Origin: Candidatus Micrarchaeota archaeon
GTDB lineage: Archaea > Micrarchaeota > Micrarchaeia > Anstonellales > Bilamarchaeaceae
Direction: 5' to 3'
Assembly (NCBI GenBank): GCA_013425375.1
Contig: JACCLH010000004.1
Span: forward strand, 1 to 40,199
Length of the DNA: 40,199 nucleotides
The notes under the pieces are model-generated. The model made no database searches and had not been told where the DNA came from. It saw only the letters and a list, made by a program, of their open reading frames with translations. The position numbers and the translations under genes were made by a program. Of the stretch, positions 7,126 through 11,182 are shown in pieces (position 1 is the stretch's first letter; the number at the start of each line of letters is the position of its first letter).

Positions 7126-7821
7126 ATGGAAAGGAATACCGTGCCCCGACATATTGCTATCATACCTGACGGGAACCGTCGCTGGGCCGAGAAACAGGGC
7201 ATCAGCAAGAAGGAAGGCTACGCCATAGGCATAGAGAAGATAGGCGACGTGCTGAAATGGTGCAAGAAGCACGATGTCTATATGCTCACCATGTGGGGAT
7301 TTTCCACAGACAACTTCAAGCGGGACCACGAGGAGGTCAGCACCCTGTTCGGGCTTTTCAAAGACAATCTCCAGAAGGCCATAGAAAGCGATGACCGCAA
7401 CAAGAAGGAGCTGAGGGTGCGGTTCTTCGGCAGGATAAACCTGTTCCCGAAAGAGATACAGCAGATGATAAGGAAGGCCGAGGAAGTGACAAGTGGCGGG
7501 GACAGGAAATACCAGCTCAATCTCCTGCTTTCCTATGGCGGGCGCGAAGAACTTGTGGATGCTGTGAACAGCATAATAGCAGAGGGTATGGACAAGGTGG
7601 ATGAGAAGGCGATAAGCGATCATCTTTATACCAAAGGAGTGCCTGACCCTGACCTGGTGATAAGGACTTCAGGAGAGCAGAGGCTGTCCGGGCTCATGCC
7701 GTGGCAGAGCTGCTACAGCGAATTCTATTTCTGCAGGAAGCTATGGCCGGATTTCTCCAAAAAGGATTTCGAGGCTGCTCTGAATGAGTACGGGAAGAGG
7801 AAGCGGAGATACGGGAAGTAG
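7126..7821 (+). CDS. uppS: cis-prenyltransferase (polyprenyl diphosphate synthase)
   Basis: PRHIAIIPDGNRRWA, FSTDNFKR, YGGREE, DPDLVIRTSGEQRLSG motifs. Confidence 0.95.
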   Translation: MERNTVPRHIAIIPDGNRRWAEKQGISKKEGYAIGIEKIGDVLKWCKKHDVYMLTMWGFSTDNFKRDHEEVSTLFGLFKDNLQKAIESDDRNKKELRVRFFGRINLFPKEIQQMIRKAEEVTSGGDRKYQLNLLLSYGGREELVDAVNSIIAEGMDKVDEKAISDHLYTKGVPDPDLVIRTSGEQRLSGLMPWQSCYSEFYFCRKLWPDFSKKDFEAALNEYGKRKRRYGK

Positions 7822-7861
7822 GGAATTATAAAAGCTTTCACCTGAAATGAGAAAAGCATAC

Positions 7862-8064
7862 GCCGCAGTAGCTCAGTGGGAGAGCACACCTGCCTCTTTT
7901 AGGGATTGTTTTCTGAAAGAGACTGTGAAGCTGAAGACTCTCAATGAGTCGGAGGCCCTTTATCGGGTTGCCTTATCAAGGCAGAAACGGTGGGGTCGCT
8001 TGTTCAAAACGCGCGACGGCGCCGATATATGGCGACGGAGCGCGGGAACATCAGGCCTGCGGCA
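7862..8064 (+). tRNA. tRNA-Phe(GAA) with three introns (7891-7929 at 30/31, 7937-7986 at 37/38, 8009-8050 at 59/60)
   Basis: Joining exons 7862-7890, 7930-7936, 7987-8008 and 8051-8064 gives a 72-nt cloverleaf: GCCGCAG/CTGCGGC, CACCG-CT GAA GA-CGGTG, GCTTG-TTCAAAT-CAGGC; BHB-like motifs at the junctions. Confidence 0.88.
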
Positions 8065-8102
8065 TTTTGCTCACAGTAATGAGCAGTGCCGCCCGATTTA
8101 TT

Positions 8103-8110
8103 TTTAAATA
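8103..8110 (+). promoter_or_regulatory. TATA box of the leader-leuA transcript
   Basis: TTTAAATA begins exactly 30 nt before the ATG at 8133, the same spacing as 1607/1637, 4258/4288, 10148/10178 and 12516/12546. Confidence 0.7.
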
Positions 8111-8132
8111 CTTACATCCACAAGTAAACACT

Positions 8133-8201
8133 ATGCAGAGCATGAGAGAAATTGATAACTCTAAGTCCGCATTGCTCAGCCTGCTCCTTCTCCTGGCCTG
8201 A
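8133..8201 (+). CDS. Putative Leu-rich leader peptide MQSMREIDNSKSALLSLLLLLA
   Basis: 7 Leu codons among the last 9 sense codons; leaderless-type TATA spacing; lies directly upstream of leuA. Confidence 0.7.
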   Translation: MQSMREIDNSKSALLSLLLLLA

Positions 8202-8292
8202 CCGGCCACACTCTTATATACCCCCTGATTTGTAAGAAAAAATATCCTCAGTCTTACTTCTTTCTATCATCGAAAAAAACGAGGTGAAGGAT

Positions 8293-10065
8293 ATGGATGC
8301 TAACCAAAAAATAGGACATAACGGAAACCCGCAGACCATGCGTCCCATGCCGCAATCTGTCAGGGGATGGAAGTGGTGGGCCAACGTCAAGGACAGGTAT
8401 TTCGCGCAAATCGCGGAACATGCAGACGGTTTCGGCCGTGCATCGGCCTTCCCGGACATTGAAAGGCTGAAGAAGGTGAGGATATTCGACACCACCGGCC
8501 GGGACGGCATGCAGATGCCTGATGCCTTCATCACCGTGGCAGGCGGGATAACGGCCACACAGAACAAGATAGACATCGCGGTGGAGCTGGCGAAATGGGG
8601 CATACCCATAATAGAGGTCGGAAGCGCCATGAGCAGCCCGGAAGAAAAGATGGCCATCCGGGAGGCGAAAAGGAGAGTGATGAAACTCGGTCTGCCCAGC
8701 GAGATAGTGAGCCTTGCGCGCATGAACCGGAAGGATATAGAAGAGGCATGGGGTCCTGACGTTGGCACTGACAGCATCCATCCTGACATTATCCATCTCT
8801 TCTCTTCAGGTTCTGACCCGCATACATGGGTTAAGTTCGGGAAAATGCCGAAAGATGTGATACCGGACATCGTCGACAGCGTGACATATGCACAGCAAAT
8901 CGGATTCAGGAAGATGGTCGTATCGCTGGAGGATGCGGCAAGGACTGACCCAAAGCACCTGGTGGAGGTAGCCAGCGCAGTGAATGAGATAGCCAAAGCA
9001 AGGGGGGTGGAGGTGCACTATAACATCCCGGACACGATTGGCGTCGCTGACCCAGTGTACATGTTCGCCCTCATCTCATACATCCACAAGAAGGTGCCGT
9101 CGCTTCCGCTCCAAGTGCACTGCCACAACGACCTGGGAAGGGCTGTGGACAACAGCCTTGCAGCAATATACGCTGGAGTTTCAGAGGTCCATGCAACCAT
9201 GCATGGCATGGGTGAGAGAACAGGAAATGCCGCGCTGGAGCAGATTGTGATGAACCTTTACACAAGACATGGCGTGGCGCTGGTCGACCCGCACCAGATT
9301 TCAAGGATATCGGAATTCATAAGGCAGCGTTCCGGGGTGGACGCGCCAGTGAACGCGCCGGTCATAGGCAGGAACGCCTTCCGGCATGAGTCCGGCGTGC
9401 ACGGCGATGCCGTAGACAAGAGCAACCGGATGGGATATGGCAGGCGTAAGGGAGTGGACGGCGGAAGCGTGTATGCCCCGTTCAATCCGGCTGTCATCGG
9501 GAGAAAGGAGGAGATGGGCATAGGGCCGCTCTGCGGAAGGGCCAATGTCGAGTACCGCCTTGCGGAATTCGGCATCACAGTGCCTGACGACAAGATAGCC
9601 GACATCGTCGAAAAGGTCAAGAGGATGTCCGACAGCGCGAAGGTGAGCGACGCGGATTTCATCCTCATGGCCTACGAAAGCGTGAAAGAGAAGCCATGCG
9701 AGAAGGTCAGGATATCAGAGATAGACGTCTGGATCGCTATGAGCGGGGCCCGTGCATACGTGCAACTCGGACTGAACGGCCATTATAGAAAGGCTGGAGG
9801 CGATGGAAACGGCCCTGTGGATGCTGCGGTCGAGGCGATAAAGAACGCGCTTGGCAGGCACAGCATGGACATAGTAGCCTACGAGAACAAGTCGATAGGC
9901 CAGGGAAGCGACGCCGGGGCAAGAGTCACAGTGACGGTGAAGAAACGGCGGGGGAAGATACGGATCGAATCTTCTGCCGTAGGCACTGATACAGTCCTTA
10001 TCGCCGTGGAGGCTTTCAGGAAGGGCTACAACGCCATGTGCGCCCTGGAGACGCTCAGGAAATAG
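8293..10065 (+). CDS. leuA: 2-isopropylmalate synthase (LeuA/CimA DRE-TIM family) with C-terminal allosteric domain
   Basis: IFDTTGRDGMQ, NIPDTIG, HCHNDLG, GERTGNA, HESGVH, GNGPVDA motifs; GAGGTGA RBS at 8281 favours the ATG at 8293. Confidence 0.8.
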   Translation: MDANQKIGHNGNPQTMRPMPQSVRGWKWWANVKDRYFAQIAEHADGFGRASAFPDIERLKKVRIFDTTGRDGMQMPDAFITVAGGITATQNKIDIAVELAKWGIPIIEVGSAMSSPEEKMAIREAKRRVMKLGLPSEIVSLARMNRKDIEEAWGPDVGTDSIHPDIIHLFSSGSDPHTWVKFGKMPKDVIPDIVDSVTYAQQIGFRKMVVSLEDAARTDPKHLVEVASAVNEIAKARGVEVHYNIPDTIGVADPVYMFALISYIHKKVPSLPLQVHCHNDLGRAVDNSLAAIYAGVSEVHATMHGMGERTGNAALEQIVMNLYTRHGVALVDPHQISRISEFIRQRSGVDAPVNAPVIGRNAFRHESGVHGDAVDKSNRMGYGRRKGVDGGSVYAPFNPAVIGRKEEMGIGPLCGRANVEYRLAEFGITVPDDKIADIVEKVKRMSDSAKVSDADFILMAYESVKEKPCEKVRISEIDVWIAMSGARAYVQLGLNGHYRKAGGDGNGPVDAAVEAIKNALGRHSMDIVAYENKSIGQGSDAGARVTVTVKKRRGKIRIESSAVGTDTVLIAVEAFRKGYNAMCALETLRK

Positions 10066-10177: not shown

Positions 10178-11182
10178 ATGAAGCTTTACATCCCCCCAGG
10201 ATATAAGCCACTTCTCAGGGCGAGGGATACCGAAGCAGCGATCCAGAGGATAAAATCGCTTTTCCAGAAGCGGCTTTCCGAGAACCTGAATCTCTACAGG
10301 GCGTCGGCCCCGATGGTTGTCCGGGCCGGCACTGGCATAAATGATGATTTGAACGGCGTCGAGAGGAAGGTCAGCTTCAGCGTCAAAGACGACAACGACG
10401 CCAAAGTCGAGATAGTCAACTCCCTGGCCAAATGGAAGAGGATGGCGCTCGCCAGGTACGGGTACAGCCACGGCGAAGGCATCTGGACAGACATGAACGC
10501 CATCAGGCCTGATGAGGAACTCGACAACACCCATTCTGTCTATGTGGACCAGTGGGACTGGGAGCGGGTGATAAACACACAGGAGCGGAATCCGGACTTC
10601 CTGAAATGGGCTGTGAAAAAGATTTACGATGCCATAAAGAGGATTGAGTGGCGGATATCCCAGGATTACGGCGCAAGGTCGTTCCTTCCGGAAGAGATAT
10701 CATTCATCACGACCTCCGAACTCGAGGGGCGGTATCCGGATCCGGATAGAAAGGCAAGGGAGAACGCAGTGGCTGAGCACAAGAAGGCGGTATTCATAAT
10801 GCAGATAGGGTGGCCGCTTAAGGACGGAAAACCGCATGACGGCCGCGCCCCGGATTATGACGACTGGAACCTTAATGGCGACATCTTCGTATGGAACCCG
10901 GTCCTCAAGAGCGCGTTCGAGCTTTCCTCGATGGGAATCCGCGTTGACAAGGAGACCCTTGTGAAACAGCTTCAGGCTGCGAATGCCATGGAGCGCCTGG
11001 AGCTCGAGTTCCACAAGATGCTCATGGCAGACCAGCTTCCGCTTTCAATCGGCGGCGGCATCGGGCAGTCAAGGCTTTCCATGCTCTACCTGGGGGCGGC
11101 GCACATCGGGGAAGTGCAGGTAGGCATCTGGCCGGCTGAGATGGTTGCCGAGCTGGAGAGGAATAATATAAAGCTGCTATGA
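10178..11182 (+). CDS. asnA: Aspartate--ammonia ligase (bacterial-type AsnA)
   Basis: GINDDLNG.E, SLAKWKR, HSVYVDQWDWE, HDGRAPDYDDW, ELSSMGIRV, GGGIGQSRL motifs. Confidence 0.95.
   Translation: MKLYIPPGYKPLLRARDTEAAIQRIKSLFQKRLSENLNLYRASAPMVVRAGTGINDDLNGVERKVSFSVKDDNDAKVEIVNSLAKWKRMALARYGYSHGEGIWTDMNAIRPDEELDNTHSVYVDQWDWERVINTQERNPDFLKWAVKKIYDAIKRIEWRISQDYGARSFLPEEISFITTSELEGRYPDPDRKARENAVAEHKKAVFIMQIGWPLKDGKPHDGRAPDYDDWNLNGDIFVWNPVLKSAFELSSMGIRVDKETLVKQLQAANAMERLELEFHKMLMADQLPLSIGGGIGQSRLSMLYLGAAHIGEVQVGIWPAEMVAELERNNIKLL

What the first reader, a model, noticed from the sequence alone, without database searches (positions are those of the whole stretch)
8103..8295. Candidate ribosome-mediated leucine attenuator (Leu-rich leader peptide plus anti-SD) upstream of leuA in an archaeon
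Seen in sequence: TATA box (8103), then an ATG exactly 30 nt later as for four other genes here, then a 22-codon ORF ending TTG CTC AGC CTG CTC CTT CTC CTG GCC TGA (7 Leu in 9 codons), then leuA 91 nt downstream. The Leu-codon tract TCCTTCTCCT (8185-8194) pairs at 9 of 10 positions with AGGTGAAGGA (8282-8291), the leuA SD region. The stop codon sits in a TGGCC/GGCCA hairpin loop. Competing pairings exist downstream: TCTTAT 8212-8217 with GTAAGA 8232-8237; GTAAGA with TCTTAC 8252-8257; ATATCCTCAgTCTT 8242-8255 with the SD and start (8281-8294). A pyrimidine tract at 8253-8265 could act as a terminator. Established: Leu-codon leader peptides control leuA in Proteobacteria, and the actinobacterial LEU element is proposed to sequester the RBS. 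To my knowledge amino-acid-sensing leader-peptide attenuation is not established in archaea. Inference: a ribosome stalled on the Leu codons masks the anti-SD and frees leuA initiation.
Basis: partly seen in the sequence, partly recalled or inferred. Interest (0 to 1): 0.9.

Follow-up and report, generated by a model that had tools for sequence, protein, structure and literature searches.

The report
Conserved leucine leader peptide in Micrarchaeota
A tiny upstream reading frame that ends in a run of leucine codons, with its stop codon held in a small RNA hairpin, is conserved in front of a leucine-synthase-like gene in a group of ultra-small archaea, which makes it a strong candidate for the first leader-peptide amino-acid sensor seen in Archaea.

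Summary
A short ORF ending in a Leu run + Ala/Gly + stop, with the stop in the loop of a GGCC-type hairpin, precedes the orthologous gene in 16 of 16 loci with enough upstream DNA (11 Micrarchaeota genomes, 5 metagenome contigs). It is absent from 0 of 21 distant relatives, and 1 stray hit turned up among 71 other LeuA-family loci.

Coding signatures are clear. There are four synonymous Leu codons, all three stop codons, and only 3-nt indels inside the ORF. The ATG lies 30 nt after a TATA box, which is this genome's modal leaderless geometry.

The proposed mechanism (Leu codons acting as anti-SD) holds in the window but is not conserved. The helices that are better supported are:
- uORF 5' end with the first Leu codons (P0)
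- the stop hairpin (P1)
- a downstream anti-SD (8252-8260) with the SD

A U/C-rich tract sits 54-59 nt after the stop in 13 of 16 loci.

"leuA" is over-named. The protein scores below all NCBIfam cut-offs, and the genomes searched lack LeuB, LeuCD and IlvD.

My best reading is a ribosome-mediated Leu-sensing leader (about 0.55). Its output step and its sign are unresolved. No expression data were available.

The parts
8102..8110 (+). Archaeal TATA box of the leader transcript (TTTAAA from 8103), 30 nt before the leader ATG
   Evidence: Read. Aligned TTTAAAAA block in 11 of 11 sequences. Genome-wide TATA peak at -30/-29 from ATG.
8133..8201 (+). Leaderless 22-codon leader ORF, MQSMREIDNSKSALLSLLLLLA*
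   Evidence: A homologous ORF is present in 16 of 16 orthologous loci with upstream DNA. Indels inside the ORF are 3 nt, those outside are mostly 1 nt.
8172..8195 (+). Regulatory Leu run: TTG CTC AGC CTG CTC CTT CTC CTG (7 Leu and 1 Ser)
   Evidence: 96 of 153 tail codons in 17 loci are Leu in frame, against 3 and 24 in the other two frames. Codons used are CTC 32, TTG 22, CTG 21, CTT 21.
8135..8184 (+). Helix P0: 5' part of the leader ORF (8135-8146) pairs with the first Leu codons (8175-8184)
   Evidence: MFE folds. 86.8% of cells pair against 22-39% in slid controls. Variants are GCAAGC/GCUUGC, GCAG/CUGC, and a 9-bp AGGAGCAGG/CCUGCUCCU in L121.
8194..8208 (+). Hairpin P1: TGGCC / GGCCA with the leader stop codon (8199-8201) in the loop
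   Evidence: Present in 17 of 17 leaders. L035 has GGGC/GCCC, a change on both sides that also turns Ala into Gly. The stem is longer in the AT-rich L034 and L038. The stop codon is TGA in 5, TAG in 11 and TAA in 1.
8206..8211 (+). CCACAC just after P1, a possible second anti-SD
   Evidence: Best partner of the SD region in L031, L032 and L123 (-12 to -16 kcal/mol). 76.6% of cells pair in the correct register, with no covariation (the +1 row).
8232..8237 (+). GTAAGA (segment E), a possible competitor for the anti-SD
   Evidence: E:G helix pairs in 81.3% of cells against 40-52% in slid controls, with no change on both sides.
8252..8260 (+). Anti-SD segment G (TCTTACTTC), pairs with the SD and its flank at 8281-8289
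   Evidence: RNAalifold. 90.9% of cells pair against 42-72% in slid controls. Covariation is reached by 4 of 500 shuffles. Pair 181:227 is UA 6, CG 3, UG 2.
8253..8265 (+). U/C-rich tract, candidate archaeal termination signal; it overlaps the anti-SD
   Evidence: The longest U run starts 54-59 nt after the stop in 13 of 16 loci. It is U5 or longer in 10 of 16 and U3-4 in 6 of 16, the window among the latter. No bacterial-type terminator was found.
8273..8286 (+). A run (8273-8279) and Shine-Dalgarno GAGGTG (8281-8286) of the downstream gene
   Evidence: GAGGTG is invariant in 11 of 11 sequences. The genome-wide SD-like peak lies at -13 to -9.
8293..10065 (+). LeuA-family gene, 590 aa from the ATG: about 60-aa N-terminal extension, HMGL-like domain, LeuA_dimer domain
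   Evidence: Orthologues occur in 11 of 176 genomes of the order.

Best explanation
This is a cis-acting leader that reads leucine supply through the ribosome.

An archaeal promoter (TATA at -30) makes a leaderless mRNA whose first 22 codons form a leader ORF. The last nine codons hold seven Leu. The stop codon sits in the loop of a GC hairpin (P1). The first Leu codons pair with the 5' end of the same ORF (P0).

Downstream lie a purine segment, a conserved pyrimidine segment (an anti-SD plus a U/C tract), an A run, and the SD of a LeuA-family gene.

Inferred mechanism:
- With charged tRNA-Leu plentiful, the pioneer ribosome runs through P0 and P1 to the stop and leaves. P0 and P1 refold, and the pyrimidine segment then acts. 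It pairs with the SD, and its U-rich stretch may also act as an archaeal terminator. Expression is low.
- With tRNA-Leu scarce, the ribosome stalls on the Leu run. P0 and P1 stay open and the downstream fold changes, so the gene is expressed.

Shown here: the anatomy, its conservation, the coding signature of the ORF, and helices P0, P1 and anti-SD:SD.

Inferred only: that stalling happens, which downstream pairing it changes, whether the output is translational, transcriptional or both, and the sign of the response.
For: (1) Conservation. The leader is present in 16 of 16 orthologous loci with upstream DNA. These fall into about nine sequence lineages, and two GTDB families are represented.

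(2) Coding signature.
- 96 of 153 tail codons are Leu in frame, against 3 and 24 off frame. Four Leu codons are used.
- Among 9 lineage representatives, 91 codon differences are synonymous and 47 are not.
- Stops are TGA 5, TAG 11, TAA 1.
- Indels are in multiples of 3 only inside the ORF.

(3) Leaderless start. The TATA lies 30-32 nt before the ATG in the loci examined, and this is the genome's modal geometry.

(4) Specificity.
- It is unique in the 1.1-Mb genome.
- 0 of 21 distant RDGMQ-type loci have it.
- Among 78 LeuA-family loci, 4 of the 7 Micrarchaeota orthologues pass the strict scan and 1 of 71 others gives a stray hit.
- A motif scan of 176 genomes of the order gave 14 hits against 2 control hits. 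Ten of the 14 are leaders.
- No leader was found among the genomes outside the order in a 401-genome phylum draw.

(5) Structure.
- P1 is present in 17 of 17 leaders, with one change on both sides.
- P0 pairs in 86.8% of cells against 22-39% in controls.
- Anti-SD:SD pairs in 90.9% against 42-72%, with covariation reached by 4 of 500 shuffles.

(6) The downstream product carries the LeuA allosteric domain.

(7) Background from the literature. Oligo-dT tracts, and FttA with a preference for U-rich RNA, terminate archaeal transcription (PMC13681488, passages read).
Against: - No expression data. No RNA run holds the locus, so the TSS, translation of the uORF and any attenuated 3' end are all unobserved.
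- Thermodynamic folds with the ribosome footprint masked give no consistent change in SD accessibility. They also give no consistent change in the hairpin before the U tract. In most folds the SD stays paired in every state.
- Two simple relays that I could build from supported helices predict the opposite sign, with stalling leading to SD sequestration. One is the freed uORF 5' end capturing segment D/E. The other is the freed CCACAC pairing with the SD.
- None of the pyrimidine:purine pairings beats composition-preserving shuffles on average: mean z is -0.05 to -0.5 and -0.12.
- The U tract is only U3-4 in 6 of 16 loci, including the window.
- The Leu codons used are the common ones, not rare ones.
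- The regulated enzyme is not part of a recognisable leucine pathway. In 5 element-bearing genomes IlvD is found in 0 of 5. Iso_dh and aconitase are found only as a TCA-type pair in 2 of 5. KARI is found in 1 of 5.
- The whole-leader fold is only modestly more stable than shuffles (z = -1.58).
Confidence: 0.55

Rival explanations
1. Direct translational attenuation, as the first reader proposed and as in the mycobacterial poly-Cys leaderless sORFs. The Leu-codon tract is itself the anti-SD. A ribosome stalled on it uncovers the SD, and a released ribosome lets it re-pair.
For: - In the window the Leu tract is the best partner of the SD region (-16.4 kcal/mol; 9 of 10 pairs). It is also the best in L033, L003 and L124 (-13.6 to -16.7).
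- That clade has both CUCCUCC and GGAGG.
- The tract between P0 and P1 is predicted single-stranded.
- Precedent: the bioRxiv preprint 10.1101/834739 (passages read).
Against: - In the window's register only 59.2% of cells pair, against 38-67% in slid controls, and there is no covariation.
- z against shuffles ranges from -1.8 to +1.4, with mean -0.14 over 16 loci.
- In L031, L032, L123, L120, L030, L034, L037 and L038 another segment is the better partner.
- Masking the tract does not free the SD in folds.
Confidence: 0.12
2. A structured cis-regulatory RNA that is read by a protein or a small molecule rather than by a translating ribosome. The open frame would be a by-product of a pyrimidine-rich strand. 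This is how Seliverstov et al. read the actinobacterial LEU element.
For: - Nucleotide-level invariance exceeds what coding requires. CTCAGCYTGCTCC, TATCCTCAGTCTTAC and the P1 arms are nearly invariant in 11 of 11 sequences.
- In L035 the hairpin is kept while the Ala codon becomes Gly.
- For the LEU element the authors cite experiments in which Leu-codon mutations did not affect regulation, and they favoured a protein (PMC1262725, passages read).
Against: - Frame, ATG and stop are kept in about nine lineages with very different sequences.
- The AT-rich L038 and L034 re-encode Leu with TTG/CTT codons.
- Indels are 3 nt only inside the ORF.
- The ATG sits exactly where this genome's leaderless genes start.
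- No Rfam family matches.
Confidence: 0.12
3. The uORF is translated but does not sense leucine. It would be a constitutive damper, a one-shot loader for the downstream gene, or the gene for a small hydrophobic peptide with its own function.
For: - The peptide tail LSLLLL(L)A is conserved at the amino-acid level, and an SNS motif precedes it in the window's family.
- The Leu codons are common ones.
- The downstream enzyme lacks a leucine-pathway context.
- In G018 the same leader precedes an unrelated 247-aa ORF.
Against: - Nine hydrophobic residues are too few for a membrane span (my own knowledge).
- The N-terminal half of the peptide varies freely.
- In 16 of 17 loci the element sits in front of a LeuA-family gene that carries a LeuA allosteric domain. 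That link to one specific amino acid is hard to explain otherwise.
Confidence: 0.12

Closest known systems
Enterobacterial leu operon leader (leuL) and other classical ribosome-mediated transcription attenuators (trp, his, ilv)
   Same: - A short leader ORF carries a cluster of codons for one amino acid just before its stop.
- The stop lies in or next to a hairpin formed by the regulatory codons, much like the trp 1:2 hairpin (recalled).
- Alternative pairings lie downstream, and the element stands upstream of a LeuA-family gene.
   Different: - This is an archaeal promoter with leaderless initiation instead of an SD-led leader.
- No GC-rich terminator hairpin plus U run is present. There is only a U/C tract, often interrupted.
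- The partner of the regulatory codons lies upstream of them (P0).
- The best-supported output helix sequesters the SD.
- No Rfam leader family matches.
- The regulated gene is not in a leucine operon.
Mycobacterial poly-cysteine leaderless sORF attenuators (bioRxiv 10.1101/834739; passages read)
   Same: - A leaderless short ORF is the first cistron.
- A run of one amino acid's codons lies at its 3' end.
- The proposed control is of translation of the next gene through SD masking.
   Different: - Bacterial versus archaeal, and Cys versus Leu.
- There the codon tract itself pairs with the SD. Here that pairing is not conserved, and a separate anti-SD segment is the supported partner.
Actinobacterial LEU element upstream of leuA (Seliverstov et al. 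2005, PMC1262725; abstract and passages read)
   Same: [quoted passage not shown]
- Pairing of the Leu run with the SD was proposed.
- No obvious terminator is present.
   Different: - The LEU element is a conserved pseudoknot in bacteria, and its authors judged ribosome-mediated attenuation unlikely.
- I did not test for a LEU-like pseudoknot.
- The sequences and the promoter context are unrelated.

Membership tests
Classical ribosome-mediated attenuator | Short leader ORF with its own start and stop upstream of the structural gene | tested here: met
   ORF 8133-8201. Conserved in 16 of 16 orthologous loci.
Classical ribosome-mediated attenuator | Cluster of regulatory codons for one amino acid | tested here: met
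   7 Leu in the last 9 codons here; 3-7 Leu in 17 loci, and 5 or more in 16 of 17.
Classical ribosome-mediated attenuator | Mutually exclusive helices that link ribosome position to the output | tested here: inconclusive
   P0, P1, E:G and G:SD each beat slid controls. G is shared by E:G and G:SD. Constrained folds give no consistent switch.
Classical ribosome-mediated attenuator | Intrinsic terminator (GC-rich hairpin followed by a U run) before the structural gene | tested here: not met
   No terminator-like site lies in 8133-8292. There is only a U/C tract, U5 or longer in 10 of 16 loci. It could act as an archaeal oligo-T signal, but this was not tested.
Classical ribosome-mediated attenuator | The regulated genes make the sensed amino acid | tested here: inconclusive
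   The product is in the LeuA family and carries LeuA_dimer. LeuB, LeuCD and IlvD were not found in 5 genomes with the element.
Classical ribosome-mediated attenuator | Expression responds to supply of the amino acid or charged tRNA | not testable with these tools
   No RNA run was listed. The organism is uncultured.
SD-masking codon-tract attenuator (poly-Cys sORF type, LEU element base stem) | The regulatory codon tract pairs with the SD of the downstream gene | tested here: not met
   Met in the window but not as a conserved feature: 59.2% paired against 38-67% in controls, and mean z -0.14.
Rfam leader and riboswitch families | Match to a curated covariance model | tested here: not met
   cmscan of 7700-8500 at E up to 10 gave only a 14-bit snoRNA chance hit on the other strand.
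2-isopropylmalate synthase (LeuA) equivalog | Score above the curated NCBIfam cut-off | tested here: not met
   The best score is 354.9 bits against a cut-off of 517 (NF002085). All 26 matched families are below their cut-offs. The Pfam domains HMGL-like and LeuA_dimer are above theirs.

The most novel reading that the evidence does not exclude
This is the first ribosome-mediated amino-acid attenuator in Archaea. It is built on a leaderless uORF whose regulatory codons pair backwards with the mRNA's own 5' end. It operates in DPANN archaea that cannot make leucine. There it would report host-supplied leucine and control an orphan LeuA-family enzyme of unknown role, possibly through an archaeal U-tract/FttA termination step as well as SD masking.
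Probability: 0.45. Interest if true: 0.9.

Novelty: new variant of a known kind. Interest (0 to 1): 0.8.

Why it matters
Leader-peptide attenuation is a textbook bacterial mechanism. It depends on coupled transcription and translation.

Four full-text searches turned up no archaeal example of a leader peptide that senses an amino acid. From my own knowledge, archaeal amino-acid control is described through protein regulators and a few riboswitches.

A conserved and compact case would give a concrete object for two tests: whether archaeal ribosomes regulate in cis, and whether coupling to RNA polymerase, oligo-T signals or FttA is exploited for regulation.

It also points to unexplained metabolism. 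Genome-reduced Micrarchaeota keep a leucine-linked, LeuA-like enzyme and appear to regulate it, yet the rest of the pathway is missing.

Tried and rejected
- The longer 85-codon frame (7944-8201) and the 86-codon frame (7847-8107) as real genes: rejected. They overlap an interrupted tRNA-Phe gene and match no family.
- Rfam: no family.
- Bacterial-type terminator: none.
- A promoter at 8214-8220: not conserved.
- A regulon of similar leaders in the same genome: none found.
- Leaders in front of canonical LeuA/CimA genes of other archaea: none. One stray hit (L088) was not followed up.
- Leaders outside the order, sought with a narrow motif: none. The hits in G408, G440 and G246 were inspected and are unrelated. 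The matched strings in G375 and G229 have TGG in place of a stop.
- A relay in which the uORF 5' end pairs with the U tract (Seg1:Y2): no better than composition, mean z -0.12.
- A relay in which the uORF 5' end pairs with segment D/E: 73.6% of cells pair against 23-50% in controls. It predicts the unexpected sign and is weak in several loci, so it stays a lead only.
- Ribosome-constrained folding: no clean switch.
- Expression evidence: no RNA holder was listed, and read laying was not used.
- Interpreting the Iso_dh and aconitase genes on contig C35 as LeuB and LeuCD: rejected. They score above the cut-offs for NADP-isocitrate dehydrogenase and aconitate hydratase, and they sit beside ATP-citrate-lyase-like genes.
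No supplementary files were consulted.
Full report
WHAT IS THERE. Every coordinate in the finding checks out.
- TTTAAA starts at 8103 and an ATG lies at 8133, 30 nt later.
- The 22-codon ORF (8133-8201) reads MQSMREIDNSKSALLSLLLLLA*. Its last nine sense codons are TTG CTC AGC CTG CTC CTT CTC CTG GCC.
- The TGA stop (8199-8201) lies between TGGCC (8194-8198) and GGCCA (8204-8208).
- Ninety-one nucleotides later, after GAGGTG (8281-8286), comes the ATG (8293) of a 590-aa gene.

The region from 7822 to 8132 is not empty. Positions 7862-8064 are a tRNA-Phe(GAA) gene interrupted three times. Its uninterrupted counterpart in a relative is called by ARAGORN (L030 615-686). This accounts for the two roughly 85-codon frames listed there, which match no family.

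ORGANISM AND PROMOTER GEOMETRY. Record titles of the orthologous loci say Candidatus Micrarchaeota, a DPANN lineage. The assembly has 1.097 Mb in 89 contigs and is 82% complete.

Across 845 crude ORF starts in this genome, TATA-like hexamers peak sharply at -30 (57) and -29 (43), against a background of 0-10. SD-like motifs peak at -13 to -9.

So the leader ATG sits where this organism's leaderless genes start. The downstream gene has the SD typical of internal cistrons.

The downstream gene has orthologues in 11 of 176 genomes of the order. They share an N-terminal extension of about 60 aa and the motif DTT(A/G)RDGMQ. Six metagenome contigs also carry it.

All 16 loci with enough upstream DNA have the element. 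The shared features are:
- a TATA box about 31 nt before an ATG
- an ORF of 19-33 codons that ends in a Leu run, then Ala (Gly in one case), then a stop
- the stop in the loop of a GGCC-type hairpin
- 75-104 nt further on (155 in L035), the SD and start of the gene

Three loci need a comment:
- In G131 the contig cuts the leader's 5' end.
- In G133 an unknown 157-aa ORF lies between the leader and the gene.
- L122 has too little upstream sequence to judge.

A seventeenth leader, in G018, precedes a 247-aa ORF of a multi-copy family with no Pfam match, just before the contig ends.

CONTROLS.
- 0 of 21 more distant RDGMQ-type loci have a Leu-run uORF.
- Among 78 LeuA-family loci from genome contigs, 4 of the 7 Micrarchaeota orthologues pass the strict scan. 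Of the other three, L040 has only 3 Leu, L043 is truncated, and in L044 (G133) the leader lies further upstream. One of the 71 other loci gives a stray hit.
- The G000 genome holds only this one case.
- A hairpin-plus-codon motif found 14 sites in 176 genomes of the order, against 2 for the reversed control pattern. Ten of the 14 are leaders.
- In a 401-genome draw from the phylum, none of the hits outside the order is a leader.

IS IT TRANSLATED? The sequence evidence says yes.
- In 17 leaders, 96 of 153 tail codons are Leu in frame, against 3 and 24 in the other two frames.
- Four Leu codons are used: CTC 32, TTG 22, CTG 21, CTT 21.
- AT-rich lineages re-encode the run with TTG and CTT.
- Stops are TGA 5, TAG 11 and TAA 1.
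- In the 11-sequence alignment, both indel blocks inside the ORF are 3 nt, while those after the stop are mostly 1 nt.
- The N-terminal half of the peptide varies freely and the tail is fixed.

RNA-level selection acts as well. CTCAGCYTGCTCC is invariant, and in L035 the hairpin changed on both sides (GGGC/GCCC) at the cost of an Ala-to-Gly change.

STRUCTURE. I tested candidate helices on the alignment against slid-partner and shuffled controls.

| Helix | Cells paired | Slid controls | Note | Call |
|---|---|---|---|---|
| P0: uORF 5' end with first Leu codons | 86.8% | 22-39% | | 70 |
| Anti-SD 8252-8260 with SD and flank | 90.9% | 42-72% | covariation reached by 4 of 500 shuffles | 66 |
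| GTAAGA with TCTTAC (E:G) | 81.3% | 40-52% | no change on both sides | 71 |
| CCACAC with SD flank | 76.6% | 13-52% | invariant sequence | 72, +1 row |
| uORF 5' end with GGATTTGTA (D/E) | 73.6% | 23-50% | | 74 |

P1 is invariant in this alignment and varies compatibly in the distant loci.

Against composition-preserving shuffles, only P0 shows a consistent signal, with mean z about -0.9 to -1.0. Leu tract:SD has mean z -0.14.

The Leu-tract:SD complementarity in the window is therefore real (-16.4 kcal/mol). It is largely what any CUY-rich tract does opposite a purine-rich SD.

A U/C-rich tract overlaps the anti-SD. Its longest U run starts 54-59 nt after the stop in 13 of 16 loci. That run is U5 or longer in only 10 of 16, and U3 in the window.

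MECHANISM. The sensor half is well defined: a leaderless uORF, the Leu run, P0 and P1. By analogy with bacterial leaders it should report the speed of Leu decoding.

The output half is not resolved.
- The conserved anti-SD:SD helix argues for control of translation.
- The position-conserved U-rich tract could also be an archaeal terminator. Oligo-dT tracts, and FttA with a preference for U-rich RNA, are the known signals (PMC13681488, passages read).

Folding with ribosome footprints masked gave no consistent switch. Two simple relays that I could assemble predict SD sequestration on stalling, the opposite of a biosynthetic logic. I therefore commit to ribosome-mediated Leu sensing, and I mark the output step and its sign as inferred.

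THE GENE. It has HMGL-like and LeuA_dimer domains. Its nearest solved relatives are isopropylmalate and homocitrate synthases. It scores below every NCBIfam cut-off.

Pathway searches in five element-bearing genomes, one of them a single-contig genome, gave the following:
- IlvD: 0 of 5.
- KARI: 1 of 5.
- Iso_dh and aconitase: only in 2 of 5. In G000 these are a TCA-type NADP-IDH and aconitate hydratase, next to ATP-citrate-lyase-like genes.
- A branched-chain aminotransferase-like gene: 4 of 5.
- No canonical citrate synthase, only citryl-CoA-lyase-like matches.

G000 also has a second LeuA-family paralogue at 36% identity. 'leuA' is thus a family name here. The enzyme's role in these reduced genomes is open.

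COMPARISON AND NOVELTY. The element works like a bacterial leader-peptide attenuator. In its leaderless design it resembles the mycobacterial poly-Cys sORFs (10.1101/834739, passages read). In its gene context it resembles the actinobacterial LEU element (PMC1262725, abstract and passages read).

It fails two membership features: a bacterial terminator, and codon-tract:SD pairing as a conserved trait. It matches no Rfam family.

Full-text searches for archaeal leader-peptide or ribosome-mediated attenuation found no archaeal case. A search for Micrarchaeota together with leucine biosynthesis found no paper. Subscription journals are mostly outside that library, so this is not proof of absence.

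I rate the finding a new variant of a known kind, with high interest and a real risk that the mechanism differs from the simple picture.

Noticed in passing
window 7862-8064 (+): A tRNA-Phe(GAA) gene interrupted by three insertions: two around the anticodon arm and one in the T arm. ARAGORN and Rfam miss it. The relative L030 has the uninterrupted 72-nt gene at 615-686, and L034 has another interrupted copy. In three loci the tRNA lies directly upstream of the leader promoter.
   Followed up: partly
G000 contig C35 (L146 132-6530), and G004, G106, G135, G026: The genomes that carry the leader lack recognisable LeuB, LeuCD and IlvD, and mostly lack IlvC. G000 and G106 have only a TCA-type cluster: ATP-citrate-lyase-like genes, NADP-IDH and aconitate hydratase. 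The LeuA-family enzyme is therefore a metabolic orphan. No canonical citrate synthase was found, which leaves open a Re-citrate-synthase-like role for one of the two LeuA-family paralogues.
   Followed up: partly
L153 (G018:C5), oriented 1434-2347: The same Leu leader, hairpin and SD precede a 247-aa ORF with no Pfam match instead of the LeuA-family gene. That ORF belongs to a multi-copy family found in 43 of 176 genomes of the order, with up to 8 copies in G085. The contig ends 95 nt after it.
   Followed up: partly
L159 (G133:C21), ORF L159:945-1415 (-): An unknown 157-aa Gly/Ala-rich ORF sits between the leader and the LeuA-family gene, so in this genome the leader heads a two-gene operon.
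   Followed up: no
G000 contigs C54 (- strand, ATG at oriented position 49) and C51 (+, 2313): Two near-identical 22-codon TATA(-30) short ORFs, MKQEAH(G/A)FLAAFGRWNPESKAL. Each lies 69-85 nt upstream of a different SD-led long ORF. This may be a second conserved uORF or a repeated element.
   Followed up: no
window 10178-11182 (+); L119-L121 upstream flank: An aspartate-ammonia ligase gene (AsnA, above its NCBIfam cut-off) neighbours the leader and LeuA-family unit. It lies downstream in the window and upstream in three metagenome loci.
   Followed up: no
L192 (G408:C33:4098-4196): Three tandem copies at 41-nt spacing of a unit that contains a GGCC-TAA-CGGCC hairpin, directly before a tRNA-like sequence. 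It is unrelated to the leader.
   Followed up: no
L037 / L045 (G135:C1): A second LeuA-family paralogue (35% identity) ends just before the leader promoter, so two family members lie in tandem with the leader between them.
   Followed up: no
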